From the sequence record MN158213.1: a stretch of DNA of 44,021 nucleotides, one strand, 5' to 3'. Below the pieces are notes generated by a model. That model was not told the origin of the DNA. It made no database searches and saw only the letters and a list, made by a program, of their open reading frames with translations. The translations under genes were made by a program, and so were the position numbers. This stretch comes from Escherichia phage BEK2-2. Every line of letters begins with the position of its first letter. Position 1 is the first letter of the stretch. Shown piece after piece: positions 142 to 41,111 of the stretch.

Positions 142-146
142 CGAAG

Positions 147-330
147 CGGGACAGGCGGGACGTCCCGTTTTGTCCCGCCCCTCAAAAGTGAATGGCTATG
201 CGGTTTTTCTGCATAAAGTAAGCGGGACAAAAAGCGGGACAAACAGGAGGCGGGACAAAGCGGGACAGCACCCCTGTCCCAGTCAGTGCTGCCGCTGGTT
301 TTAGCCGATCGGGACAGGCGGGACAAAGCC
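147..330. repeat. GGGACA iteron-like array, copy A (direct and inverted GCGGGACA units, including palindromes GGGACGTCCC and GGGACAG-N5-CTGTCCC)
   Basis: Read directly: at least 8 direct and 3 inverted GGGAC(A/G) units within about 180 bp; homologous to 27722-27828. Confidence 0.7.
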
Positions 331-447: not shown

Positions 448-3090
448 ATGGCAGATCAGGCAGCGGGCATCACGCTCAAGGCGGACGTCGCGCAAATTAA
501 AACGGCTAATACTGTGCTGGACACATTCGCGCAGAAATCCGAGAACACAGAACAGAAAGTAAAGAAATTAAACGACACACTCGGCAAGTCGAAAAAGGTT
601 ACTGGCGACGCCGCTGGAGGAATGGAAAAGTTAGCGACTGAATCGCAGCGCGCCGCCGACGGCATGACGAAACAGGAGCGACTAGCCAGCCGATTAGGCA
701 TGTCGACCAAAAACCTGGGATTTGCTTCACGGAACGCGGCATTCCAGTTACAGGATATTGCGGTAACGCTTGAGATGGGTATGCCGGTGCACCGCGTCAT
801 GCTTCAGCAGTTACCACAGCTAACCGGCGCATTCGGCGGATTAGGTAACACGCTGCGTTATGTTGCGGGCTTCCTCGGCCCAGTAGGGATCGGACTTGCG
901 GCAGTAACGGCGACGTTAGGCGTGGGCGTGGCAATCACGTCACGGGCAGAGAACCAGGTAGCCGCGCTTAATAAGACGCTGGCGCTGTCCGGTAATATTT
1001 CAGGCCTCACAGCTAACCAGATCCTTGTGCTGTCCGAGAACGCTGAGCGCATGGGCGGGTCATTTCGCAAGACGCGTGACACAATCCAGGCGCTGGCGGC
1101 GGCGGGTGTGAAAGCGGGTGGTGACTTCGGCGCATTGGCTAAGGTAGTTAATGACTTTGCGAAGGTGTCCAGCCAGCCGATCGAGGATGTGGTGGCGGCG
1201 GTGGCGAAGCTGTCAACCGACCCCGTTGGCGGACTGCGTGCGCTGGCGGATAAGTATCACGTCGTAAACGAAGCGCAGATCCAGCAGGTACAGTCGCTCG
1301 TTGATGCGGGTCGTGAGACAGACGCAGTTGCGTTGGCTAACAAAACAGCCGCTGCGTCGTTCACCAGTATGACCAATGAGGTCAAGGCGAACATGGGTAC
1401 GCTTGAGCGATCTATGAACGTCGTCACATCGGCAGCCAAATCAATGTGGGATGCCATCCTGGATGTGGGCCGCGCGCAGTCCTCCAATGAGTCCGAGATG
1501 AAAGCGCGCGAATCACTACAGCGCATGACCACGGCTTACTATGCCGAGATGAAAGCGGTAAACGCTGCCGGTGGGGTAATGACTGAAGCGCAGAAAGCAC
1601 GTATTAACATGCTTTACAGCGAACTGGTCGCCCAGGAAAAAGTGGTGGCGTCGCTCACCCTGCGTAACCGTGCTGAGCGAGACAACGCCCGCGCCGCAGA
1701 CGAATCCGCAAAGGCGAACGAGGAGGCCAACCGCACTGCCCGTGACCGCGCCGCGTTCGAGAAGGAATACGCCACCAACGCTAAGAAGCGCGCCGACGAG
1801 ATCGCCCGCCTCAATTTGCTGAATAAGCGCGGCGTTATTGATGAGAAAGAACTAGCCGAGGCGGTGAAGCAGGTAAACGAGCGGTACAAAGACCCAGCCC
1901 CGAAAAAGGCCGCGGCTGTTCGCGTGGATGCCGGTATGAAAATGCTGGAAGTCGCACGGAGCGAACTGGCCCAGCTTCGAGAATCCGGCAAGCAGATCGA
2001 AGCCAACGCGTCTACGCAGACCCGCACGCAACGCGCTCAAGCGGCCTTAAACAAGCTGATCGCCGACAATGAGCAGTTAATCGCTGCGAGCAAAGAAAGA
2101 GCGCTAACGGCAGCAGAAAAGCAGCAATTAGTCGAGTTCGGGCGCGTGAAGGAAGTCCGCGAGCAGATCGTCGAAGAAGCCAAATTGCTGGATGCGAAAG
2201 AGCAGCAGGTTAAGGCGCACGCGCAGATCGATGCCTTCGTTAAGAACCAGAACGCCGAACTAAAAGCCACCGCCGCGGGGTATGCGCTTTCCACTCGCGA
2301 AGCGGCAAACCTGCGCGAAGAATTGCAGCTAATTGACCGCCTGAAGCGGGTTGGCGCTAACGATACCGATATTGACAAGGCGGTGTCTAAGCTGCGAGAA
2401 GTGCAGGAAGCACAGACCGGCGCTAACGCCTCGTTATGGGATGGATTCAGTCGCGGGCTTAAGGATAGCGTGGATGAAATGGGTAACGGATATACGCAGA
2501 TGGCGTCGCTCACGAAATTTACATTCAGCGCTATGCAGGACACGATGAACGAGTTTTTCGAGACTGGTAAGCTGAACGCAAAGGATATGGTTAAGTCCAT
2601 CCTGAGCGAATTAATCAAGCTGGCTACCTCGCAGGCGTTCAAGTCCATCGTTAGCGCTTTCGGTGGTGACGGCGGAAAAAACGGATTGTTCGGCGCTATC
2701 TTCTCTGGCCTCACTAAGAATGCGGACGGCGGAGCGTACACAGGCGGCAATCTCGCGGCCTATTCGGGGAAAGTGGTAAGCCAGCCTACCTTTTTCAGTT
2801 ATGGCGTCCAGGCGTTCGCTAAGGGCGCTGGGTTGATGGGTGAGGCTGGACCCGAGGCCATCATGCCACTGAAGCGCGGGCCGGACGGGAAACTGGGCGT
2901 TGCCGCGTCTGGCGCAGGCGGTGGTATGGTCGTGACGACTAACGTTTACACGGGGACCGGTAAGACGGACACCAGTGTTAGCGGGCCAGACCCACGTACC
3001 GCGCAGGCGTTCGGCAAGCAAATCACCGAGGCGGTGAAGTCCGAGATCGTGAAAGCGACTAAACCAGGTGGTGTACTTTACAAACGATGA
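448..3090 (+). CDS. Tail tape measure protein
   Basis: 880 aa, Ala/Gln-rich with long coiled-coil stretches and a Gly-rich C-terminus; immediately upstream of M/L/K/I/J-like genes. Confidence 0.88.
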   Translation: MADQAAGITLKADVAQIKTANTVLDTFAQKSENTEQKVKKLNDTLGKSKKVTGDAAGGMEKLATESQRAADGMTKQERLASRLGMSTKNLGFASRNAAFQLQDIAVTLEMGMPVHRVMLQQLPQLTGAFGGLGNTLRYVAGFLGPVGIGLAAVTATLGVGVAITSRAENQVAALNKTLALSGNISGLTANQILVLSENAERMGGSFRKTRDTIQALAAAGVKAGGDFGALAKVVNDFAKVSSQPIEDVVAAVAKLSTDPVGGLRALADKYHVVNEAQIQQVQSLVDAGRETDAVALANKTAAASFTSMTNEVKANMGTLERSMNVVTSAAKSMWDAILDVGRAQSSNESEMKARESLQRMTTAYYAEMKAVNAAGGVMTEAQKARINMLYSELVAQEKVVASLTLRNRAERDNARAADESAKANEEANRTARDRAAFEKEYATNAKKRADEIARLNLLNKRGVIDEKELAEAVKQVNERYKDPAPKKAAAVRVDAGMKMLEVARSELAQLRESGKQIEANASTQTRTQRAQAALNKLIADNEQLIAASKERALTAAEKQQLVEFGRVKEVREQIVEEAKLLDAKEQQVKAHAQIDAFVKNQNAELKATAAGYALSTREAANLREELQLIDRLKRVGANDTDIDKAVSKLREVQEAQTGANASLWDGFSRGLKDSVDEMGNGYTQMASLTKFTFSAMQDTMNEFFETGKLNAKDMVKSILSELIKLATSQAFKSIVSAFGGDGGKNGLFGAIFSGLTKNADGGAYTGGNLAAYSGKVVSQPTFFSYGVQAFAKGAGLMGEAGPEAIMPLKRGPDGKLGVAASGAGGGMVVTTNVYTGTGKTDTSVSGPDPRTAQAFGKQITEAVKSEIVKATKPGGVLYKR

Positions 3091-5252: not shown

Positions 5253-5860
5253 CAACGTTTAAATTGTACGGCGTTTTGGGGCGTCGATTCGGTAAAGTTC
5301 ATAAGCTGGACTGCTTCACTCCGGGCGAGGGTATTACCGGCCTGTGCGTGAAGTTACCCGGCTTACAGGACTTTCTAATGTCAGCCCACCTGGACAATAT
5401 GATGTTCAAGGTGCGCAAAGGCGACCACACGATGACCGGCTATGATGAGCTGGGTGAGTTCCACGGCAACCGCGTCGTCACCATCGCGCCGGTTATGACT
5501 GGCGCAAAAAGAGGGTTGGGACAATTGCTGGCGGGTGTCGCGATCGTAGTGGCGTCGTTCTATACGGGCGGACTTGCTACTGCTGCTTTCGGGGCTTCGG
5601 CTGCAACCGCTGCCGCTATCGGGACGGCGACGTTTTCGTTCGGGATGTCGATGGCGCTGGGTGGCGTTATGCAATTGCTATCTCCGCAACCGAAAGGATT
5701 GCAGACACGGCAGGATGTGGATAACAAGGCGTCGTATGCGTTCGGCGGCCCAGTAAACACTACCGCGCAAGGCACGGCTCTTGGTGTATTATGGGGCGAG
5801 CGTGAGATCGGCGGCGCTATTATTTCAGCCGGAATCGTAACCGAGGACTTGAACGAATGA
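5243..5860 (+). CDS. Tail assembly protein I-like
   Basis: 205 aa with Gly/Ala-rich hydrophobic C-terminal half; lies between K-like and J-like genes. Confidence 0.65.
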   Translation: MAMTTFKLYGVLGRRFGKVHKLDCFTPGEGITGLCVKLPGLQDFLMSAHLDNMMFKVRKGDHTMTGYDELGEFHGNRVVTIAPVMTGAKRGLGQLLAGVAIVVASFYTGGLATAAFGASAATAAAIGTATFSFGMSMALGGVMQLLSPQPKGLQTRQDVDNKASYAFGGPVNTTAQGTALGVLWGEREIGGAIISAGIVTEDLNE

Positions 5861-9305: not shown

Positions 9306-9920
9306 TCAGTCATATTTAGCGGCATCTATCACAAGTATGGATGATGAGTAATAAACGCCAAGCGGCCCCGGTGTGTGGGCTACTTGCTTAGCTATCGAAT
9401 AAATACTTGTCCCGGATGCGCCGGATTGTGACTCGTAAATAGCGTGCCCACCAATCTGAGGGGCGGGAACCGAGTTTATTGCCGTTTGTTGTGGGGATAC
9501 AGCACATGTATACCCCAAATTAACATCAAAAGACAGACCGTTTATAGGTATTTGGTGGGCCTCCAACGGCAACATTTTCCCGTGGTACACCATATCACCC
9601 GCAGAATTATAGAATGCGATCCCGTAGTCTCCCGGCGGTGTGACCATGTCACTAAAAGCATAAACCTTAATCCATCCGGGGTTGTCGGTCTTGTCTAGTC
9701 GGAGCGCATGATAACCACCGTTATTTATGTGCGTGAATGCGGTGTACGCGCGCCCGCCCATCCTCACAAAGAAAAAGCACACGCGATCGAATGGTATTGG
9801 AGTTGTAAAAACAGAACCGCTATATACACCCATATCACCGCGACTTATTAAATTAACAGGCGTAAAATCCGGGCTTAACCAAATGGACCCATCAGGCTTT
9901 ACAAGCTGCATTCCGTACAT
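9306..9920 (-). CDS. Hypothetical protein, third gene of a reverse-oriented cassette
   Basis: Start placed at the ATG (MYGMQLVKPDG...) preceded by GGGGG and lying 1 nt downstream of the upstream gene's stop; shares a YG(F/I)A(I/F)..GxD(V/M) motif with the upstream ORF. Confidence 0.5.
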   Translation of the reverse strand: MYGMQLVKPDGSIWLSPDFTPVNLISRGDMGVYSGSVFTTPIPFDRVCFFFVRMGGRAYTAFTHINNGGYHALRLDKTDNPGWIKVYAFSDMVTPPGDYGIAFYNSAGDMVYHGKMLPLEAHQIPINGLSFDVNLGYTCAVSPQQTAINSVPAPQIGGHAIYESQSGASGTSIYSIAKQVAHTPGPLGVYYSSSILVIDAAKYD

Positions 9921-9921
9921 G

Positions 9922-10200
9922 TTACCCCCAATACGTATATATAAACCTGGATTCACCAGCGTTAAAGCCGCTCCAGGAGACAGTGTTGTCGCTTACGGAT
10001 ATTGATGGCGCACCCCACGATGTGCCGTTCCAGGTATGCGTACCAACATAACCGGCCTTTAAACTTTTCCCCGGCGGACGGTTGTGATACGTCTTGCTCC
10101 CGGATGGTTGTGTGAATTTGTCGAGGAAAAAAACCGGCGTTAGCAGGCCGGTTACATCCCGGCCGTGCTCGTCAAAAATCGCGAACCCATAGTTACTCAC
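9922..10200 (-). CDS. Hypothetical protein, second gene of the reverse cassette
   Basis: GTG start preceded by GGAG; start overlaps the stop of the lipoprotein gene, suggesting translational coupling. Confidence 0.45.
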   Translation of the reverse strand: MSNYGFAIFDEHGRDVTGLLTPVFFLDKFTQPSGSKTYHNRPPGKSLKAGYVGTHTWNGTSWGAPSISVSDNTVSWSGFNAGESRFIYTYWG

Positions 10201-10462
10201 TTTTACACTCCACGATTTCGAATTTATCTTCGCGTTGCCATCTGTGAACGAAAGTCACAAATTTCAGCGATGGGGCTACCCGGTATTGTTTTTCGCCAAA
10301 TCTATTTTCACGCACCGCGTTTAGGTTAACAGGGTAGCTATCGTTTACAGGGAATGTTTTAACAACATATTGGCCTACGCAATCGATAGCCTTGTAGTTG
10401 CCGTCTGGCGATGCGGAGCAACCGGATAAAAGAACCGCACAAATCATAATTAAAGTTTTCAT
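10193..10462 (-). CDS. Small lipoprotein (signal peptide plus lipobox LSGC); candidate superinfection-exclusion protein
   Basis: MKTLIMICAVLLSGCSAS N-terminus with strong AGGAG site; reverse-oriented between J and tail fibre genes, as for cor/llp-type genes. Confidence 0.6.
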   Translation of the reverse strand: MKTLIMICAVLLSGCSASPDGNYKAIDCVGQYVVKTFPVNDSYPVNLNAVRENRFGEKQYRVAPSLKFVTFVHRWQREDKFEIVECKSE

Positions 10463-10542
10463 GGTATCATCTCCTATATTTGGTTGAGTTTTAGTATTAC
10501 ACCGCTCGATCAAGAATGCAACCAATTTACGAGGATTTAGCT

Positions 10543-27721: not shown

Positions 27722-27828
27722 CGGGACAGAAAGCGGGACAAACATGGGGCGGGACAAAGCGGGACAGCACCCCCGTCCCGCCCCGGATGGCGCGGCCTGG
27801 CGGGGAGCGGGACAAGCGGGACAAACCC
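27722..27828. repeat. GGGACA iteron-like array, copy B
   Basis: Direct GGGACA units and palindrome GGGACAGCACCCCCGTCCC; homologous to copy A at 147-330. Confidence 0.7.
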
Positions 27829-27882: not shown

Positions 27883-28037
27883 AATCCGGAGATTGCAAAA
27901 CACACGGCAGCATGATACGAAGTGCGGTCGTCTACTAACTAGGCAACCAATGCGGGTTGTATTATGCTGAGTGAAAAATGCGGTTTGCAGCCACAGCAGA
28001 TAGCGATCAACTTTTTCATGCGCGTGATTAATATTGG

Positions 28038-28066
28038 TTGCGTCCACCCCGGCACCAGGCTATATT
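28038..28066 (+). promoter_or_regulatory. Putative promoter TTGCGT-N17-TATATT overlapping two ATTGGTTGC motifs
   Basis: Read directly; 28 bp upstream of the 28095 gene. Confidence 0.35.
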
Positions 28067-28094
28067 GGTTGCACACCAACATGAGGACTGAACA

Positions 28095-29982: not shown

Positions 29983-30273
29983 ATGGATAAGCTAAACGAG
30001 TGGTTATTCGCCCTCGCGTGCCTTGCAGGTGGCTTTGTTGGCGCCCGCATTCACGGCGAGGCTACGAAAGGGCCGCTAAACTTCGTTTTATATATCGTGG
30101 TCGGCTTCTTGTGTGCCGTTTTTGGCGCTCCAGCGATTGCCGAGTGGGCTGGCTTATCTGGCGAGCGCACTGTCGCCGGTTTGGGCTTCGTAACTGCTAT
30201 CTTCTGGATGCCAATAGCCGCCCGGATCAGGGAGACTATTGAGTCGTTCCGACTTCCGGGGGGCGCAAAATGA
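29983..30273 (+). CDS. Holin (multi-pass membrane protein)
   Basis: 96 aa with hydrophobic helices; immediately upstream of the lysozyme gene. Confidence 0.6.
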   Translation: MDKLNEWLFALACLAGGFVGARIHGEATKGPLNFVLYIVVGFLCAVFGAPAIAEWAGLSGERTVAGLGFVTAIFWMPIAARIRETIESFRLPGGAK

Positions 30274-30515
30274 TTATCTCCGTCCTGTTGTTTGTTATCA
30301 TAGGGGCTTCGTCCCTGTTTAACGTGTATGCGCCGTCCGTCCAGGATGGCATTTTAGGCCGGGTGTTATATCTGCTAACGGCAATGATCTGCGTTATCGG
30401 ATTATTGCAAACAGGAGACGTATCTGACACCACCTGGACCGCGTTAATCTGGCTGTTTGCATTGCGCACGCTGCGTAATGCTGTTTTGAATGGGGTAAAA
30501 CATGCGATTCAGTGA
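30270..30515 (+). CDS. Second small membrane protein (holin or antiholin partner)
   Basis: 81 aa with two hydrophobic segments; overlaps neighbours in the lysis cassette. Confidence 0.45.
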   Translation: MIISVLLFVIIGASSLFNVYAPSVQDGILGRVLYLLTAMICVIGLLQTGDVSDTTWTALIWLFALRTLRNAVLNGVKHAIQ

Positions 30516-30993
30516 TAACGGTCTAAGATTTACGGCAGCATGGGAGACGTTCAGCCCAGTGCCGTATTTCGCGACTAAGAAAGAGCAGGCCCGCGGCCTG
30601 TACACCTGGGGCTATGGTCACACCGGCACTAACCCGCCTCGAAGCATTACCCGAGAGGAAGCGCTGGCGCTACTCAAGCGCGATGTGGCGTATGCCGAGG
30701 CTTGGGTGAATAAATACGCACATCCGAGCATTAACCAGGCGCAATTCGACGCGCTGGTGGACCTGGTTATCAATGCCGGTAATGGCCCGATCGTACCGGA
30801 TAACATCGCGAACGATTTCGATGATGCGGTGCGCCTGGGTGACTGGGCGAAGGTCCGAGCTACGCTGCCACAGTTCCGCAAGCAAGGCGGGGAAGTGCTG
30901 AAGGGGCTAGTCCGTCGAGCAATCGGCAGGCAAGCGCTATTCGACGGTAAGCAGTGGGACGTTGCCGAGAAAATCGGACGTAACGCAGCATAA
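30502..30993 (+). CDS. Endolysin, GH24 phage lysozyme (P22 gp19 / T4 E-like)
   Basis: Matches the lysozyme core by eye: catalytic Glu in AAWETF, GYGHTG, INQAQFDALVDLVINAG. Confidence 0.88.
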   Translation: MRFSDNGLRFTAAWETFSPVPYFATKKEQARGLYTWGYGHTGTNPPRSITREEALALLKRDVAYAEAWVNKYAHPSINQAQFDALVDLVINAGNGPIVPDNIANDFDDAVRLGDWAKVRATLPQFRKQGGEVLKGLVRRAIGRQALFDGKQWDVAEKIGRNAA

Positions 30994-36402: not shown

Positions 36403-37489
36403 TCAATATATGGCGGATCGAATGATTCGCCGTCACATCTTCACCCAGCGCCTGAGCAATGACCAGGCGCGACGGGTGCTGGCTATGTGGGAGAAGTTCC
36501 GGCCCACTTTACTTGGTAAGCTGACCGAGTTACTTGATGGCAAAAAGTCCATGAGCAACAAGGCACTTACCACACTGTTAACTCAAATCGACAAGACCGT
36601 CAAAACGGAACTGCGCGCAGAGTTTAAAGTGCTGGCGGAGAGCCTTCAGGAGTTCGCCGACACCGAGGCTGATTATCTCGCGGACACATTAACGGCAGCG
36701 ATCCAGCCCGCGGTCGCTGTGCCTGCGGTCGAAGTAGTGGGCGTTGTGACCGGCGCGCAGATTGCCGCGACTGCAATGAAAAACCCGTTCCAGGGGAACA
36801 CCATGATGCAATGGCCTGATTCACTTTCAGAGTGGACCAGGACGCAGATCGGCAATCAGGTGCGCGCTGGATTCATCCAGGGCAAGCCGACTATGGAAAT
36901 TATTGCGGACGTGAGGCGCGCGCTAGGCGGTCGTAGTGCGCAAGCAATCTCAAGCGTTGTTAAGTCCGCAGTCAACCACTATGCGGCGACCGCCCGCGAA
37001 CTAATGGTAAAAGCAAATGACGATATTCTCGAAGGTCGCCAATGGTTATCTACATTGGACACGCATACTTCTCCCATGTGCCAGCTACGCGATCGCCTGT
37101 TTTATCCGGTTGATGTTACTCCCGACACCAAAGGCAAGCGCGGCGGGAAAGTGGTGGCGGGATCACAATATGGCGCTGGTCCGGGCAAGTTGCATTATTG
37201 CTGCCGGTCGACGGAGACGTGGAAAGTCAAAGGTATGGAAGATTGGCCCAGTGGTAAGCGTCCGGCACTGAAGGCTGACGCGGGCCGTTTACTGAGTGAG
37301 CAGGTCGACGCGCAGACTGATTTCTTCTCATGGGTGCAGCGCCAGCCGCGCCATATCCTGGAAGAATTATACGGGGTGCAGCGCGCGGACCAGATTATGC
37401 GCGGCGTGAAAGTGCCGAAGATGTTCACCGACACCGGCGAACTAATGACGATTGCGCAGCTTAAAAATCGGGGGTTATGGCGTGATTAA
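36386..37489 (+). CDS. Head morphogenesis protein (SPP1 gp7 / Mu F-like)
   Basis: 367 aa gene directly after portal. Confidence 0.6.
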   Translation: MAKTINQYMADRMIRRHIFTQRLSNDQARRVLAMWEKFRPTLLGKLTELLDGKKSMSNKALTTLLTQIDKTVKTELRAEFKVLAESLQEFADTEADYLADTLTAAIQPAVAVPAVEVVGVVTGAQIAATAMKNPFQGNTMMQWPDSLSEWTRTQIGNQVRAGFIQGKPTMEIIADVRRALGGRSAQAISSVVKSAVNHYAATARELMVKANDDILEGRQWLSTLDTHTSPMCQLRDRLFYPVDVTPDTKGKRGGKVVAGSQYGAGPGKLHYCCRSTETWKVKGMEDWPSGKRPALKADAGRLLSEQVDAQTDFFSWVQRQPRHILEELYGVQRADQIMRGVKVPKMFTDTGELMTIAQLKNRGLWRD

Positions 37490-37790
37490 ATACGCAGCGA
37501 TCGGGTTGGTTATCGGCCTGGCGGTTGGCTTCTGGCTGGGTGATTCCTACCGTGCAGGTGTTGAGGCGAGAGCGGCGCAAGAAGCGCAAGCGAAAGCCCA
37601 ACGGCAGCAAACTAAGGTCGTCGAGGGGTCTGTGCAGGCAGAACAGGCCCGCGATGTGGAATACAGGACTATCACGAAAGAGGTTGTGAAATATGTTACG
37701 CGTCCTAACCGTACTGATTGCCGTTTTGATGATGAGCGCGTGCGGATCAAGCAAAGGGCCATCGATGCCGCTAACCGAGTCGGTCTATAG
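37482..37790 (+). CDS. Putative i-spanin (Rz-like)
   Basis: N-terminal transmembrane segment AAIGLVIGLAVGFWLG then charged helical region; GTG start with GGGGG site; contains the overlapping lipoprotein gene. Confidence 0.5.
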   Translation: MIKYAAIGLVIGLAVGFWLGDSYRAGVEARAAQEAQAKAQRQQTKVVEGSVQAEQARDVEYRTITKEVVKYVTRPNRTDCRFDDERVRIKQRAIDAANRVGL

Positions 37791-37923
37791 ACCTCCTTGC
37801 ACCTTTGAGAATGCCTCGGCAGATCCAGACGAAGACTTGCTGGTTGATGTTAAGAATATGGAGTGTGGTGCTAAGCTAAGGGCGCAAGTGCTGGAGTTGC
37901 AGAAAATAATTCGGGGGCCGTGA
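37693..37923 (+). CDS. Putative o-spanin (Rz1-like outer-membrane lipoprotein)
   Basis: Signal peptide with lipobox LMMSAC; short product; starts inside the Rz-like gene in another frame. Confidence 0.55.
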   Translation: MLRVLTVLIAVLMMSACGSSKGPSMPLTESVYRPPCTFENASADPDEDLLVDVKNMECGAKLRAQVLELQKIIRGP

Positions 37924-37936
37924 TGGCCCCCTTTTT
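37912..37936. terminator. Intrinsic terminator between convergent genes (bidirectional candidate)
   Basis: Hairpin cgggggccgtgatggccccc followed by TTTTT. Confidence 0.6.
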
Positions 37937-37937
37937 G

Positions 37938-38702
37938 TTAGCGCGGAATACCGCAGATTTCGTTTAACGTCTTCACATCCAGCGCCACCGCCGTGGATTT
38001 AGGCTTGTCCTGGTATGGAATGAATTGCTCAACTTCAGGCCATGCCTTAATCAGCTTCTTGTCAGTATTGTGCAGGTCCAGCACACCGGTAACGGTGAGT
38101 TTGAACGCATCATACTTCGCGCGCAACTCGCGACGGGCCTTGTCGTTGCGGTCCAGGCGCTTACAGAAGTCATGGTCCGCCGGGTAGTCTACGCGACCGC
38201 GTGGCATATATATCGGCAGCGCTTTTCCGTCATCGTCCAATTCGCACACTGACGCTAACAAAATTTCCTCATACCCTGGCACAATATCGCCGAGATCGGG
38301 AGACAGCTTATTCATGTATTTATATTCCCAGTATCCGCGATGTACTCGGAATCGGTGTCCGTCTCCGCTCAATGACACGGTACGGACGTTTCCGCCGGCG
38401 TTGATTTCGAAAGTGGCATCATAAACGCGGCCGATACCATACGGGCGGTCAGCGTTATAACTATACGTCGCCTTGTTGGTGTATACGCTTACTCCGTACA
38501 TCTGCGACGGGTCATCGCAGATTGCTTTAATGCGCGCGAGTAGCTCGGCGAAAGTGCGAATGCCTTCCGGCATACAGTCCAGCGTAATGGCGTACGCCAG
38601 GTCGCGCGAGTCCATCATGATGGATTTGGCTTCGGTCGCGATTTCGTGGTCGCGCAGGATGTTAGCCAGAATCTGGTTTTTAATGTCTTTCGTCAGTCTC
38701 AT
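37938..38702 (-). CDS. Hypothetical protein, reverse-oriented accessory gene inside the head module
   Basis: 254 aa ORF on the opposite strand to all flanking structural genes; no recognisable motif. Confidence 0.55.
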   Translation of the reverse strand: MRLTKDIKNQILANILRDHEIATEAKSIMMDSRDLAYAITLDCMPEGIRTFAELLARIKAICDDPSQMYGVSVYTNKATYSYNADRPYGIGRVYDATFEINAGGNVRTVSLSGDGHRFRVHRGYWEYKYMNKLSPDLGDIVPGYEEILLASVCELDDDGKALPIYMPRGRVDYPADHDFCKRLDRNDKARRELRAKYDAFKLTVTGVLDLHNTDKKLIKAWPEVEQFIPYQDKPKSTAVALDVKTLNEICGIPR

Positions 38703-38741
38703 TTGTGTGTCCTCGTTGTTGGGGCTTTCGCCCCGTTTGGA

Positions 38742-39056
38742 TTAGTTAAACTTGATGTCTCCACCGGCGGAAGTTAAGCGAGCGCATACAGCTTCAACGG
38801 CATCAACGCACATGAAATCGTTAAAGGCTTTGACCAGGGCGTTGATGAAAGATGCCGGAACCAGACCGCAAGCCGGATTATCAAAGGTCGCGGAATTGAT
38901 TGCAGCCTTCGCTGCTTCATTAGCGTTCATGCTCTGGCACAGATTCAGAGCTTCGGCGTTACGCATTGCGTGAAAGGTGAAGGTATTGGCTACGGTAGCT
39001 TTATTGAAACGGGTCATTGCTACGTCTACTGGAGTTACTACGGTCATGTTAGTCAT
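38742..39056 (-). CDS. Hypothetical protein, first gene of the reverse accessory cassette
   Basis: Start placed at MTNMTVV with AAGGA site (ORF track extends to 39107). Confidence 0.5.
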   Translation of the reverse strand: MTNMTVVTPVDVAMTRFNKATVANTFTFHAMRNAEALNLCQSMNANEAAKAAINSATFDNPACGLVPASFINALVKAFNDFMCVDAVEAVCARLTSAGGDIKFN

Positions 39057-39077
39057 TTTGTTTTCCTTCATATCTCT

Positions 39078-39120
39078 GTCGGTGTGCAACCAATATATTG
39101 CAACCAATACACGGATTGCA
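39078..39120. promoter_or_regulatory. Divergent control region with two TGCAACCAAT motifs
   Basis: gtgTGCAACCAATatatTGCAACCAATacacggattgcaagc read directly between the reverse cassette and the scaffold gene. Confidence 0.45.
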
Positions 39121-39211
39121 AGCTAATTTTGCGATTATTTTTATCACTGATAATATTAGAGGCGTGAAGTCGAGCGGGTGGCCCGCTCTGCCACAATCCC
39201 AGGGGGATAGC

Positions 39212-39913
39212 ATGAAACTTACTAAAGCAGAATATGACGCGTTGCCGGAAGGTATGAAGGCGCTTTTTGTTGCCGATGGCGACGGGTATAAATCAACGTT
39301 CATGACCGCTGAAGAAGTACAGGCGGAAATCAAGGGTCTGAAAGACAACAACGCGAAGCTGGTGAGCGAGAAGAAAGCAGAAGCCGAACGCCGCGCCGAA
39401 GCTGAGCGCCTTGCGAAAGAGAAAGAGGAAGCCGCCGCGCGCAAAAATGGCGACCTCGAAGCGATCGATAAGTCCTGGAAAGATAAGTTTGCGAAACACG
39501 AAGCAGACACATCGGGGAAAATCGAAGCCTACCGCAAGCAGATCCACGATCTCACCATCGGCAGCGCTGCCAAAGACCTGGCGTCGAAGCTGTTCGGTAA
39601 GAATGCGGGCATCATGCAACGCCACGTAATGGACCGCCTGACGCTGGAAGACGGCGAAGACGGCAGCTTGAAAGTGCGTGTCTTGCAGGATGGCAAACCG
39701 TCCGCGCTGACTATGGAAGAGCTTGAAAAAGAGTTCCGTAATAACGCCGATTTTGCATCCGTCCTGGCTGGCACGCCAGCAGGCGGCGCTCCTAGCAAAC
39801 CGACGCAGGTTGTCGAAGATGTGAAGTCTAAAATTACTATGGGCCATAGCTTCGGTATCACCGATCTCACCAAACAGGCCGGGGATATCATCGCTAAAAT
39901 GGGCGACGAGTAA
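39212..39913 (+). CDS. Capsid scaffolding protein
   Basis: Coiled-coil Glu/Lys/Ala-rich protein upstream of the major capsid gene; start placed at MKLTKAEYD with GGGGGA site (ORF track begins at 39098). Confidence 0.6.
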   Translation: MKLTKAEYDALPEGMKALFVADGDGYKSTFMTAEEVQAEIKGLKDNNAKLVSEKKAEAERRAEAERLAKEKEEAAARKNGDLEAIDKSWKDKFAKHEADTSGKIEAYRKQIHDLTIGSAAKDLASKLFGKNAGIMQRHVMDRLTLEDGEDGSLKVRVLQDGKPSALTMEELEKEFRNNADFASVLAGTPAGGAPSKPTQVVEDVKSKITMGHSFGITDLTKQAGDIIAKMGDE

Positions 39914-40010
39914 GCAGATTGCCCGCTTTCGCGGGCAATTTTGCGAGCGCGTAAAACTAAGGTAACATTAACGTCACTGGGCGAATGCTCACAACTCAAA
40001 GGATTTAGAT

Positions 40011-41111
40011 ATGTCTTTAACAGTGTTCCAGCGTAAACTCGTTACCGCGGTTACGCAAATGATCCCCGACAACCTGAACGTATTCAACGCTGCCGCCAAT
40101 GGCGCTGTTGTTCTCGGTACTGGTGAAGTGCTGAAGGACGTTGTAGAAAAAATGTCCGTAGGCTTGATCGCCAACCTCGTTACCGACCGTAACGCCTATG
40201 CCCCTGTAGGTACTCCGGCGACCGCAAAAGTGCTGGCGCGTATGCTGACCAACTCCGTTAACCTTTCCGCTAAAGTGGGTCCGGTGGCAATCACTAAGGC
40301 CATGATGGCTAAGATCGAAACCAACGTTAACAGCGTTGCGGCTGAGATTGCGGCACAGGCCACGCAAGCGATTATGCTGCATTACCTGAAAGCGGGTATC
40401 GGTGCGGGTAAAGCGGCGATCGAGAGCAACAACAACGCGGTATACACCCAACCGGCGCGCGTCGATGGCGTTGGCGGTCGTACCTTCCCGACCCTGGCTG
40501 ACTTCCCTCTGGCGGCTTCTAAGTTCGGCGATCAGGCGTCTTTGATTAAGTCCTGGTTTATGGACGGCGTTACCTGGGCAAACTTCATCGCGTACCAGGC
40601 GCTCCCTTCCGCTGAACAGGTATTCGCAATTGGCGATCTTCAGGTAATGGGTGATGGCCTGGGCCGTCGTTTCATTATCTCCGATGCCGCTGCCGATGCT
40701 ATGGGTGCTGGTAAAATGCTTGGTCTGGTACCGGGTGCGGTTGCAGTTACCACCAACGGCCTCGATATGCTGGCGCAGGAAAAAGGCGGCAACGAGAACA
40801 TCGAACGCTGGTGGCAGGGCGAGTTCGACTTCAACGTGGCGGTTAAAGGCTACCGTCTGAAGGCGTCCGCTCGTACCCCGATCGAAGGCATTCGCTCGTT
40901 CAAGCTGTCAGATATCACCACTAAGGACAACTGGGAGCTTGACCAGGGCCAGGTAGACAACGCACCGGCAACCGTGCAGGACGTTGGCGCTGTTGGTGAT
41001 GGCGATACTAAAGGCCGTCGTAAGACCCAGGCCGCACAGGAAGTGCCGACCCGTCACATCAAGGAAACGGCGGGCGTGCTGGTTACGCTGACTGCGACCA
41101 AAGCGTCCTGA
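40011..41111 (+). CDS. Major capsid protein
   Basis: 366 aa after scaffold with a strong terminator downstream; Ala/Gly/Val-rich. Confidence 0.82.
   Translation: MSLTVFQRKLVTAVTQMIPDNLNVFNAAANGAVVLGTGEVLKDVVEKMSVGLIANLVTDRNAYAPVGTPATAKVLARMLTNSVNLSAKVGPVAITKAMMAKIETNVNSVAAEIAAQATQAIMLHYLKAGIGAGKAAIESNNNAVYTQPARVDGVGGRTFPTLADFPLAASKFGDQASLIKSWFMDGVTWANFIAYQALPSAEQVFAIGDLQVMGDGLGRRFIISDAAADAMGAGKMLGLVPGAVAVTTNGLDMLAQEKGGNENIERWWQGEFDFNVAVKGYRLKASARTPIEGIRSFKLSDITTKDNWELDQGQVDNAPATVQDVGAVGDGDTKGRRKTQAAQEVPTRHIKETAGVLVTLTATKAS

What the first reader, a model, noticed from the sequence alone, without database searches (positions are those of the whole stretch)
37938..39056. Reverse-oriented two-gene accessory cassette embedded in the head module
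Two genes of unknown function (104 aa and 254 aa) are transcribed leftward from a promoter region carrying two TGCAACCAAT motifs and end at a bidirectional terminator. They interrupt an otherwise co-linear rightward packaging/head operon between the head-morphogenesis/spanin genes and the scaffold gene. Opposite-strand insertions with their own promoter and terminator inside structural operons are typical morons, which commonly carry anti-defence, exclusion or host-modulating functions. Neither protein shows a motif I recognise.
Basis: inference. Interest (0 to 1): 0.6.

Follow-up and report, generated by a model that had tools for sequence, protein, structure and literature searches.

The report
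Nmad5 accessory cassette inside head genes
A backward-facing two-gene unit among the head genes of an E. coli Dhillonvirus phage encodes the already-published, dispensable Nmad5 protein (tied to escape from the bacterial Tmn defence) and an optional small orphan gene; the unit is real and non-structural, mostly already known, and its mechanism is unsolved.

Summary
Two leftward genes lie at 37938-38702 (254 aa) and 38742-39056 (104 aa). They sit between a bidirectional terminator hairpin (37913-37931) and a sigma-70-like promoter (TTGCAA-18-TATATT, 39121-39092) that carries two TGCAACCAAT boxes.

The window is a Dhillonvirus (HK578-like coliphage). The 254-aa protein does have a recognisable family: Pfam Nmad5, E 3e-55. 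The same gene was studied in Dhillonvirus SM_A8 and SM_S22 (Yamashita 2025). There it could be deleted, resisted cloning (apparent toxicity), and a K216E change let the phage escape the Tmn defence, whereas deletion did not. The window carries the wild-type K216.

Nmad5 is in about 149 of 156 Dhillonvirus records, so it is not a variable moron. It is not structural either. In the outgroup phage eiAU the head-morphogenesis and scaffold genes are adjacent, and the Nmad5 homolog sits after the primase gene.

The 104-aa gene behaves like a moron. It is a precise ~360-bp insertion in the nmad5 leader, present in about 60 of 156 records, and it also occurs without Nmad5 in unrelated phages. Its family is tiny.

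I found no support for the label "DNA modification enzyme": no partner genes, no enzyme-like fold.

Verdict: a real accessory cassette, largely known, mechanism open.

The parts
37913..37931 (.). Bidirectional intrinsic-terminator hairpin (GGGGGCC-GTGAT-GGCCCCC). It ends the rightward packaging/portal/head-morphogenesis/spanin unit and the leftward cassette.
   Evidence: -18.5 kcal/mol on the + strand and -18.4 on the - strand (z -2.6 and -3.4). U-run UUUUUGUU on +, GAAUUAUUUU on -. The nmad5 stop codon lies 6 nt away.
37938..38702 (-). nmad5: 254-aa Nmad5-family protein (PF18757), wild-type K216 allele. It carries a lineage-specific insert of roughly 65-90 residues (about residues 62-150) that Yuavirus and lambdoid Nmad5 proteins lack.
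   Evidence: E 3e-55; phrog_1965; K216; conserved T213-x3-L217-x3-W221-P222-E223; K216 invariant in 38 Dhillonvirus clusters; dN/dS 0.04-0.17; AF2 pLDDT 74.8, pTM 0.72. Published genetics: PMC11846954.
38703..38741 (-). Intercistronic spacer with a GC hairpin (38721-38734, GGGGCGAAAGCCCC on the - strand) and no U-run, followed by the nmad5 ribosome-binding region AACAACGAGGA.
   Evidence: -11.5 kcal/mol, z -3.3; the hairpin belongs to the inserted p104 module; p104 homologs in AAM37 and ZQ1 are also followed by a GC hairpin; the same CAACAACGAGGA sequence lies upstream of eiAU nmad5.
38742..39056 (-). p104: 104-aa small orphan protein, predicted all-alpha, with an invariant FDNPACGLVP motif. 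It is a facultative gene.
   Evidence: phrog_24635, 2e-63; only 10 clusters of homologs; 3 representatives in 1.84 billion proteins. (alignment). AF2 model poor (pLDDT 60.5). (dN/dS 0.07-0.20); also present in Dibbivirus AAM37 and Ackermannviridae with no Nmad5 adjacent (no Nmad5 HMM hit in those ~10-kb loci).
38718..39077 (-). Approximate extent of the ~360-bp p104 insertion module (own ribosome-binding site, p104, hairpin). It sits in the nmad5 leader between CACC(A/G)AC and AACGAGGA.
   Evidence: KS_S9, Oekolampad and Ioannina have the same promoter joined directly to nmad5. The window, Bas85 and JL1 carry the module. SM_S22 and SM_S24 also lack it.
39092..39121 (-). Leftward sigma-70-like promoter: -35 TTGCAA (39121-39116), 18-nt spacer, -10 TATATT (39097-39092).
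   Evidence: 9 of 12 match. Conserved in 6 Dhillonviruses. Similar TTGC(A/G)x-N17-TATATT arrangement, by eye, at 28037-28065 and 15306-15278. No transcript data.
39085..39108 (-). Two direct copies of the phage-wide box ATTGGTTGCA (TGCAACCAAT on the + strand) at 39085-39094 and 39099-39108. They overlap the -10 element and the spacer of the leftward promoter, and lie about 20-45 bp upstream of the candidate rightward -35.
   Evidence: The box is also frequent in eiAU. Operator function is inferred, not shown.
39129..39156 (+). Candidate rightward promoter for scaffold and capsid (TTGCGA-16-TAATAT), back to back with the leftward promoter. A conserved 5' UTR hairpin lies at 39172-39188.
   Evidence: Read from the sequence. 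The region is almost invariant among 6 Dhillonviruses. It falls below the scan threshold (8 of 12), so this is tentative.

Best explanation
The cassette is an autonomous, non-structural accessory operon placed back to back with the scaffold/capsid promoter, inside the head module of a Dhillonvirus. It has its own host-type (sigma-70-like) promoter carrying the phage's common ATTGGTTGCA boxes, and it ends at a shared bidirectional terminator.

Its ancestral content is nmad5 alone. In the sister genus (eiAU) the same gene, with the same ribosome-binding region and its own promoter, sits after the primase gene. In Dhillonviruses it has been relocated to the junction between head morphogenesis and scaffold.

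Nmad5 most likely acts as a non-catalytic binding or adaptor protein that engages DNA-replication or nucleotide-metabolism machinery, or host factors, during infection. Its nearly invariant C-terminal helix (T213-x3-L217-x3-W221-P222-E223, including K216) is probably the functional surface. A K216E change there alters the outcome of Tmn immunity as a gain or change of function, since deletion does not. In this phage Nmad5 is not part of a base-hypermodification pathway.

p104 is a later, facultative insertion (a moron) into the nmad5 leader. It is a small alpha-helical orphan protein, presumably involved in host takeover or counter-defence.

Shown: gene reality, family membership, anatomy, distribution, dispensability (published and natural deletions), absence of partner genes. 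Inferred: promoter activity and timing, non-enzymatic binding role, any defence-related role of p104.
For: Identity: Dhillonvirus, 91-95% DNA identity to phages welsh, SM_A2 and SM_A8. Nmad5 Pfam E 3e-55.

Published genetics on the same gene: deletion is viable, cloning failed because of apparent toxicity, K216E gives Tmn escape, deletion does not (PMC11846954). The window has K216.

Conserved motif and invariant K216. The C-terminal third is the most constrained (pN/pS 0.03-0.05) and the middle is relaxed (up to 0.32).

No thymidine-hypermodification partner genes in the window.

Contexts of 10 homologs outside the genus: 4 in 5-hmdU clusters; 2 beside ThyX and dUTPase (one also with RNR); 4 in early, replication or recombination regions without such genes.

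Outgroup junction is uninterrupted. Same promoter and ribosome-binding architecture.

p104 indel and distribution. Natural deletions and fusions.
Against: There are no transcript data, so promoter strength and timing are unverified. The same box also lies in the promoter region ahead of the packaging operon (31466), so it does not mark early genes only.

The AF2 model is only moderately confident (pLDDT 74.8; the insert is below 50 in places). An enzyme with a new fold cannot be excluded.

Six of ten outside contexts are nucleotide-metabolism or modification clusters. That is compatible with a real role in nucleotide chemistry.

No binding partner is known. p104 has no functional evidence at all.
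Confidence: 0.55

Rival explanations
1. Dedicated anti-defence cassette. Nmad5 and/or p104 are inhibitors of host immune systems, expressed from their own promoter.
For: Own promoter and terminator inside a late operon. Both genes are dispensable and repeatedly deleted in nature. p104 is patchy within the genus and shared with unrelated phages. A single K216E change turns Nmad5 into a Tmn-evasion determinant while deletion does not, which looks like a gain of function. Cloning failed because of apparent toxicity. dN/dS is 2-4 times that of neighbouring head genes.
Against: Phages with wild-type Nmad5 are Tmn-sensitive, and the genuine anti-Tmn gene is a different one, ORF35. No match to defence or named families. 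No window with dN/dS above 1. Nmad5 homologs usually sit inside replication or nucleotide-metabolism operons rather than in anti-defence islands. No library of known anti-defence proteins was available to test against.
Confidence: 0.25
2. Nmad5 is a DNA or nucleotide modification enzyme or cofactor, as its name and the 2025 paper assume. Tmn would then respond to Nmad5-dependent modification of phage DNA.
For: Family name and annotation. Four of ten outside contexts are 5-hmdU hypermodification clusters, where Nmad5 lies between the kinase/aGPT-Pplase genes and the thymidylate-synthase homolog. Two more lie beside ThyX and dUTPase. An unspecified NMAD domain appears together with TS and 5-hmdU kinase domains in the figure legend for defence systems validated in PMC13092281.
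Against: None of the SN1 partner genes (aGPT-Pplase1/2, P-loop 5-hmdU kinase, TS-like hydroxymethylase, rSAM, PLP enzyme, HD, dCMP deaminase) has a hit below E 0.05 in the window. No catalytic-type fold or residue set. Homologs occur in lambdoid and Stx phages between N and cIII and in eiAU. Dhillonviruses are described as only moderately resistant to tested RM systems (PMC11990801). Deleting nmad5 leaves Tmn sensitivity unchanged.
Confidence: 0.12
3. Head assembly or structural accessory proteins, as their position in the head module might suggest.
For: Position between head-morphogenesis and scaffold genes. Nmad5 is present in about 95% of Dhillonvirus records. A weak sub-threshold Phage_TAC_4 match for p104 (E 0.057, 14.1 bits against a cut-off of 21.1).
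Against: Opposite strand with its own promoter. The deletion mutant is viable. Natural truncations and fusions exist. eiAU has no gene at this junction and keeps its Nmad5 in the post-primase region. p104 is absent from about 60% of records. Family contexts are never structural.
Confidence: 0.03
4. Superinfection-exclusion or defence cargo that protects the infected cell against other phages (classical moron function).
For: Moron-like architecture. A second leftward cassette with the same box, in the tail module (9306-10525), encodes a lipoprotein-type protein and its welsh homolog is annotated as superinfection exclusion.
Against: No PADLOC hit. Neither protein sequence shows an obvious signal peptide or long hydrophobic segment (by eye; GRAVY -0.45 and +0.32). 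No integrase is annotated in the Dhillonvirus records viewed, so there is no sign of the long-lived lysogen stage in which such cargo usually acts.
Confidence: 0.05

Closest known systems
nmad5 of Dhillonvirus phages SM_A8 (CDS7) and SM_S22 (CDS6), Yamashita et al. 2025, Commun Biol 8:290 (PMC11846954)
   Same: Same gene at the same genomic position (SM_A8 is 91.7% identical over 37000-40200). Same 254-aa protein with K216. It lies between the Rz-like spanin and scaffold genes on the opposite strand.
   Different: A different allele. Cluster representatives are 85-95% identical in protein, and KS_S9 is 98% identical by tblastn. SM_S22 lacks p104. Its reported 80-residue longer N-terminus is an over-called ORF that runs through the promoter and antisense into the scaffold gene; the real start is M81 = MRLTK, so K296 equals K216.
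Nmad5 (PF18757) of Yuavirus phages (SN1, M6-like) within thymidine hypermodification clusters
   Same: Same Pfam family. Shared N-terminal helix and C-terminal TxxKLIxxWPE ... LNxxLGLP region, 38% identity over residues 169-253.
   Different: About 186 aa, without the Dhillonvirus insert. Embedded co-directionally between aGPT-Pplase1 and the TS-like hydroxymethylase. The window has none of those partner genes.
Lambdoid and Stx-phage Nmad5 homologs (for example mEp235_037) in the pL operon between N/Nun and cIII
   Same: Same family (32% identity over the C-terminal 96 residues). In a phage region with no annotated base-modification genes.
   Different: 207 aa, temperate phages, transcribed as part of the pL operon rather than from a private promoter inside a late operon.
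Morons of lambdoid phages (the concept of Juhala, Hendrix and colleagues; recalled from knowledge, not checked in a paper here)
   Same: p104 is an extra gene present in some genomes and absent from close relatives, with precise boundaries, its own ribosome-binding site, a trailing hairpin, lower GC, and relatives in unrelated phages.
   Different: p104 has no promoter of its own; it was inserted into an existing leader. The carrier phage shows no sign of being temperate. The whole cassette, promoter to terminator, fits the architecture, but nmad5 is nearly universal in the genus.
T2 RIIB as the direct protein trigger of Tmn (PMC13001434)
   Same: A phage protein in which single substitutions decide whether Tmn arrests the infection.
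   Different: No homology (hhalign probability 0.2%). RIIB nonsense mutants escape Tmn, whereas nmad5 deletion does not.

Membership tests
Pfam Nmad5 (PF18757) | Full-length match to the family HMM above the gathering score | tested here: met
   187.9 bits against a cut-off of 27, E 3e-55, protein 1-253 on profile 1-206 of 206.
Pfam Nmad5 (PF18757) | Conserved N-terminal RL and C-terminal T-x3-L-x3-WPE ... LN motifs | tested here: met
   R2, L3, T213, L217, W221, P222, E223, L246 and N247 are each conserved in 90% or more of 80 family members and are present in the window protein.
Phage thymidine (5-hmdU) hypermodification system | Presence of a dUMP hydroxymethylase (TS homolog), a 5-hmdU DNA kinase and an aGPT-Pplase alongside Nmad5 | tested here: not met
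   tblastn of the SN1 partner proteins against the window gave no hit below E 0.05; only Nmad5 itself hits (2e-11). The annotations of Bas85 and welsh list none. The window covers about 44.0 of ~45 kb; judging by collinearity with welsh, the missing part lies in the tail region.
Phage thymidine (5-hmdU) hypermodification system | Hypermodified bases in virion DNA | not testable with these tools
   Needs LC-MS/MS or restriction analysis. [quoted passage not shown]
Moron (independently acquired accessory gene in a late operon) | Present in some genomes and absent from close relatives at the same site, with sharp boundaries | tested here: met
   Met for p104: a ~360-bp indel, absent from KS_S9, Oekolampad, Ioannina, SM_S22 and SM_S24, present in ~60 of 156 records. 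Not met for nmad5: ~149 of 156 records.
Moron (independently acquired accessory gene in a late operon) | Own promoter and terminator | tested here: inconclusive
   The cassette as a whole has a consensus-type promoter and a terminator hairpin, but p104 itself only brings a ribosome-binding site and a hairpin without a U-run. No expression data.
Moron (independently acquired accessory gene in a late operon) | Deviating base composition | tested here: met
   p104 48.6% GC, nmad5 52.7%, window 54.4%. The deviation is modest.
Known anti-phage defence proteins (PADLOC) and curated NCBIfam families | HMM match | tested here: not met
   No family with E up to 1 for either protein.
Known anti-defence proteins | Homology to a characterised inhibitor, or a demonstrated rescue phenotype | not testable with these tools
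   No anti-defence library is on offer. PDB sequence search gave nothing significant. Published data show wild-type Nmad5 does not confer Tmn resistance.
Structural or assembly proteins of the head | Essential for plaque formation, with conserved synteny in relatives that share the head module | tested here: not met
   The deletion mutant is viable. eiAU and MED16 lack the genes at this junction. Natural deletions exist.

The most novel reading that the evidence does not exclude
Nmad5 is misnamed. It would be a widespread phage protein family with no catalytic role: a binding module that docks through its invariant C-terminal helix onto replication or nucleotide-metabolism machinery or a host factor, and that lies one substitution (K216E) away from neutralising or evading the Tmn membrane NTPase. 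The two ATTGGTTGCA boxes would form a divergent switch in which one phage regulator shuts off the leftward cassette while activating the scaffold/capsid promoter. p104 would be a new small anti-defence or takeover effector that moves between unrelated enterobacterial phages.
Probability: 0.25. Interest if true: 0.6.

Novelty: already known. Interest (0 to 1): 0.33.

Why it matters
The cassette is present in well over a hundred sequenced coliphages that are candidates for therapy. One of its genes already decides, through a single residue, whether the Tmn defence stops the phage.

This analysis makes three useful points. First, the label "DNA modification enzyme" that the literature attaches to Dhillonvirus nmad5 has no support in the genome: no partner genes and no enzyme-like fold. 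The Tmn link should therefore be reinterpreted as a protein-level effect. Second, the reported N-terminal length difference between SM_S22 and SM_A8 Nmad5 is a gene-calling artefact. Third, the upstream 104-aa gene is a separate, mobile orphan that has not been studied.

The biochemical role of the Nmad5 family, which is very common in E. coli prophage-derived sequences (one cluster alone holds 2436 member sequences), remains an open question that can be tested.

Tried and rejected
- Sequence search of both proteins against PDB: nothing significant.
- Foldseek against BFVD: only uncharacterised family members for Nmad5 and only the AAM37 homolog for p104 (that model has low confidence, pLDDT 60.5, so its other matches mean nothing).
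- The afdb50 library was unavailable.
- PADLOC and NCBIfam: no hits.
- Rfam on 37400-39400: no RNA family.
- Homology between Nmad5 and T4/T2 RIIB, the known Tmn trigger: rejected, hhalign probability 0.2%.
- Positive selection in the variable insert: not seen; the highest sliding-window pN/pS is 0.32 (only 5 sequences, so weak power).
- The Ojima et al. knockout-library preprint turned out to concern a Queuovirinae phage, not a Dhillonvirus.
- The Iyer et al. 2013 paper that defined the Nmad domains is not held.
- Exhaustive profile search with p104: only 3 representatives, no link to a larger family.
- The weak Phage_TAC_4 match of p104 (E 0.057, below cut-off) was dismissed.
- The idea that the ATTGGTTGCA box marks early promoters only was dropped, because a copy also sits in the promoter region ahead of the packaging operon (31466).
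Full report
**What the window is.** Region 37000-40200 is 91-95% identical to more than 130 Dhillonvirus (HK578-like) coliphage genomes, including welsh, SM_A2, SM_A8 and Bas85. Projecting the welsh annotation onto the window gives the usual genus map: tail genes; a leftward block of replication and methylase genes; primase; lysis genes; then TerS, TerL, portal, head morphogenesis, Rz/Rz1, the cassette, scaffold and major capsid protein.

**The observation.** All of its elements are present at the stated coordinates.
- ORFs lie on the minus strand at 37938-38702 (254 aa) and 38742-39056 (104 aa; ATG with AAGGA 8-12 nt upstream).
- Exact TGCAACCAAT copies lie at 39085 and 39099.
- A 7-bp G/C hairpin at 37913-37931 folds at about -18 kcal/mol on both strands. 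It is followed by UUUUUGUU on the + strand and by GAAUUAUUUU on the - strand.
- Both ORFs are genuine genes, with strong family matches and purifying selection: dN/dS 0.04-0.17 and 0.07-0.20, against 0.00-0.08 for the flanking head genes.
- No Rfam family lies in the region.

**The promoter region.** On the leftward strand the sequence reads TTGCAA (39121-39116), an 18-nt spacer, then TATATT (39097-39092). One ATTGGTTGCA box fills the spacer and a second overlaps the -10 element. This arrangement is conserved in six Dhillonviruses.

A candidate rightward promoter for scaffold and capsid, TTGCGA-16-TAATAT (39129-39156), lies back to back with it. It is below the scan threshold, so it is tentative.

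The 10-mer is not private to the cassette. It occurs 19 times (up to 1 mismatch) against 3.2 expected, and 15 of the 19 sites fall in the ~13% of the window not assigned to genes. Many sites are part of, or next to, TTGCAx-N16-18-TAxAxT promoter-like sites:
- ahead of leftward replication-region genes;
- after the primase gene (28033-28073);
- ahead of a second leftward cassette in the tail module (10517);
- in the promoter region ahead of the packaging operon (31466).

The related phage eiAU uses the same (A/G)TTGGTTGCA box. I read it as the operator of a phage regulator, or as a promoter-associated element of the phage. It does not by itself assign the cassette to a temporal class.

**The 254-aa protein.** It is a full-length member of Pfam Nmad5 (PF18757; 187.9 bits against a cut-off of 27). 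The same gene has been studied in Dhillonviruses SM_A8 and SM_S22 (PMC11846954):
- Tmn-escape mutants carry K216E (numbered K296E in SM_S22).
- Reverting the mutation restores sensitivity.
- Deleting nmad5 gives viable phage that is still Tmn-sensitive.
- Cloning nmad5 failed because of apparent toxicity.
- The genuine anti-Tmn gene is a different one, ORF35.

The window carries K216, which is invariant in 38 Dhillonvirus clusters. It lies inside the most conserved motif of the whole family, T213-x3-L217-x3-W221-P222-E223.

The 80-residue longer N-terminus reported for SM_S22 is an over-called ORF. It runs through the promoter boxes and antisense into the scaffold gene. The conserved start MRLTK is residue 81.

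**Is Nmad5 a DNA-modification enzyme here?** I found no support.
- None of the Yuavirus SN1 hypermodification genes has a hit in the window: aGPT-Pplase1/2, 5-hmdU kinase, TS-like hydroxymethylase, rSAM, PLP enzyme.
- An AF2 model built on an 80-sequence alignment (pLDDT 74.8, pTM 0.72) shows an N-terminal helical hairpin, a small sheet, a long C-terminal helix and a conserved tail.
- Foldseek against viral models finds only Nmad5-family proteins with no assigned function.
- The columns conserved across the family are mostly hydrophobic or structural.
- Ten homolog contexts outside the genus divide as follows: four 5-hmdU clusters; two regions with ThyX and dUTPase, one also with RNR; four early, replication or recombination regions with no nucleotide chemistry. 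The last group comprises lambdoid mEp235 between N/Nun and cIII, a temperate phage next to a PD-(D/E)XK gene, a phage next to an Rv2179c-like exonuclease, and eiAU.
- Dhillonviruses are reported as only moderately resistant to RM systems (PMC11990801).

The common theme is early DNA metabolism, not a specific base modification.

**Evolution of the locus.** In eiAU (head-morphogenesis protein 58% identical) the head-morphogenesis gene is followed within 86 bp by the scaffold gene. Its spanin gene sits in the lysis cassette.

The eiAU Nmad5 homolog (gp32, HMM E 7e-25) lies after the primase gene. It has its own TTGCAC-N17-TATAGT promoter and the same CAACAACGAGGA ribosome-binding region as Dhillonvirus nmad5. 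So, relative to eiAU, both the spanins and nmad5 sit at a new position at this junction in Dhillonviruses.

Pantoea phage MED16 has a leftward HNH endonuclease plus a hypothetical gene at the same junction. The junction therefore looks like an insertion hotspot.

Among phage records, head-morphogenesis protein at 80% identity or more marks 156 Dhillonvirus records. Nmad5 is found in about 149 of them. Relative to other family members, the Dhillonvirus protein carries a lineage-specific insert, roughly residues 62-150. Within the genus the most variable stretches are residues 51-90 and 116-120. The N-terminal 20 and C-terminal 75 residues are nearly invariant.

Natural loss variants exist:
- JL1 retains 74 codons.
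- SM_S24 and two metagenomic forms are truncated at the C-terminus.
- One metagenomic protein fuses the p104 N-terminus to the Nmad5 C-terminus.

**The 104-aa protein.** p104 is a separate entity. KS_S9 (whose Nmad5 is 98% identical to the window's), Oekolampad, Ioannina, SM_S22 and SM_S24 lack it. In those phages the same promoter is joined directly to nmad5. In the window, Bas85, welsh and JL1, a module of about 360 bp is inserted between CACC(A/G)AC and AACGAGGA. The module consists of a ribosome-binding site, p104 and a GC hairpin.

Only about 60 of 156 Dhillonvirus records carry p104. Homologs at 58-64% identity occur in Pantoea Dibbivirus AAM37 and in Ackermannviridae phages, in regions with replication or methylase genes, and the Nmad5 HMM finds no Nmad5 gene in those ~10-kb loci. 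Each is again followed by a GC hairpin.

The family is tiny: 10 clusters, and 3 representatives in 1.84 billion proteins. The protein is Ala-rich and predicted all-helical, with an invariant FDNPACGLVP motif. The structure model is poor (pLDDT 60.5), and no fold or family match exists. Its function is unknown. By architecture and distribution it fits a moron.

**Most likely mechanism.** The cassette is an autonomous accessory operon, not a structural one. I consider Nmad5 most likely a non-catalytic binding protein of the replication and nucleotide-metabolism phase, with its conserved C-terminal helix as the functional surface. K216E would then change a protein-protein contact so that Tmn is no longer effective. 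This fits the separate finding that Tmn senses a phage protein (T2 RIIB) directly (PMC13001434), although Nmad5 and RIIB are unrelated and nmad5 deletion does not give escape.

A dedicated anti-defence role is the main rival and cannot be excluded. The modification-enzyme and structural readings are unlikely.

**Verdict.** The moron/anti-defence interpretation is partly supported: well for p104 as a moron, weakly for any anti-defence function, and not for nmad5 as a variable insertion. The central gene is already described in the literature, so novelty is low. The open mechanistic question, the correction of the "modification enzyme" label and of the start-site artefact, and the unstudied mobile p104 give the finding moderate residual interest.

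Noticed in passing
window, 19 sites: 10517, 13700/13712, 15281/15298, 18228/18240, 24757, 27572/27626/27661, 27942, 28033/28064, 28597, 31466, 38895, 39085/39099: A phage-wide 10-mer box, ATTGGTTGCA (TGCAACCAAT on the other strand), occurs 19 times against 3.2 expected, and 15 of the 19 sites fall outside assigned genes. Sites often come in pairs 12-31 bp apart and overlap the -35, spacer or -10 of TTGCAx-N16-18-TAxAxT promoter-like sites. The same box is frequent in Edwardsiella phage eiAU. It is probably the operator of an unidentified phage regulator, or a promoter-associated element.
   Followed up: partly
window 146-325 and 27733-27823: There are two clusters of the 8-mer GCGGGACA (7 and 5 copies; 15 in the window against 2.0 expected). 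One lies before the tape-measure gene. The other lies just after the primase gene, next to three ATTGGTTGCC boxes. They look like iterons and may mark a replication origin or a regulatory region.
   Followed up: no
window 37452-37923 compared with 29983-30993: The spanin genes (Rz-like at 37452/37482-37790; overlapping Rz1-like lipoprotein at 37693-37923) sit at the end of the packaging/portal/head-morphogenesis unit, about 6.5 kb from the holin-holin-endolysin cassette. In eiAU the spanin is inside the lysis cassette. So both the spanins and nmad5 occupy a different position, at the same junction, in Dhillonviruses.
   Followed up: partly
window 9306-10525 (minus strand): A second leftward cassette is embedded in the tail module, between the central tail-fibre gene and the lateral fibre gene. 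It has three ORFs (216 aa, 92 aa, and a ~90-aa protein with a lipoprotein signal, MKTLIMICAVLLSGC). An ATTGGTTGCA box and a TTGCAT-16-TAATAC promoter-like site lie at 10517-10526 and just downstream on the leftward strand. Relatives annotate genes at this position as membrane or superinfection-exclusion proteins.
   Followed up: no
L023 (SM_S22, PP627283.1) 2006-3010, and window 39098-39913: There are gene-calling artefacts around the divergent promoter. SM_S22 nmad5 is annotated as 334 aa, and its scaffold gene is also called from a start upstream of the conserved ATG, so the two annotations overlap across the promoter. The window has the equivalent long ORF, from TTG at 39098. The conserved starts are MRLTK (nmad5) and MKLTKAEYD (scaffold, 39212). 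The published statement that SM_A8 Nmad5 has a truncated N-terminus follows from this artefact.
   Followed up: yes
L015 (Pantoea phage MED16) 4588-5162; L014 (eiAU) 5607-5694: The junction between head morphogenesis and scaffold looks like an insertion hotspot among related siphophages. It is empty in eiAU, holds a leftward HNH endonuclease plus a small ORF in MED16, and holds spanins plus the nmad5 cassette in Dhillonviruses.
   Followed up: partly
P0130, P0041, P0042 (metagenomic proteins); L013 (JL1) 2501-2725; L021 (SM_S24) 2020-2574: The cassette is repeatedly deleted in nature: a p104::Nmad5 in-frame fusion, C-terminally truncated Nmad5 forms, and a 74-codon remnant in JL1. JL1 also lacks one of the two promoter boxes. 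This may reflect selection against Nmad5 on some hosts.
   Followed up: partly
window 39172-39188: A conserved GC hairpin (GAGCGGGTGGCCCGCUC) lies in the 5' UTR of the scaffold gene and is nearly invariant among six Dhillonviruses. The fold of the 56-nt stretch containing it is not better than shuffled sequence (z -0.67).
   Followed up: no
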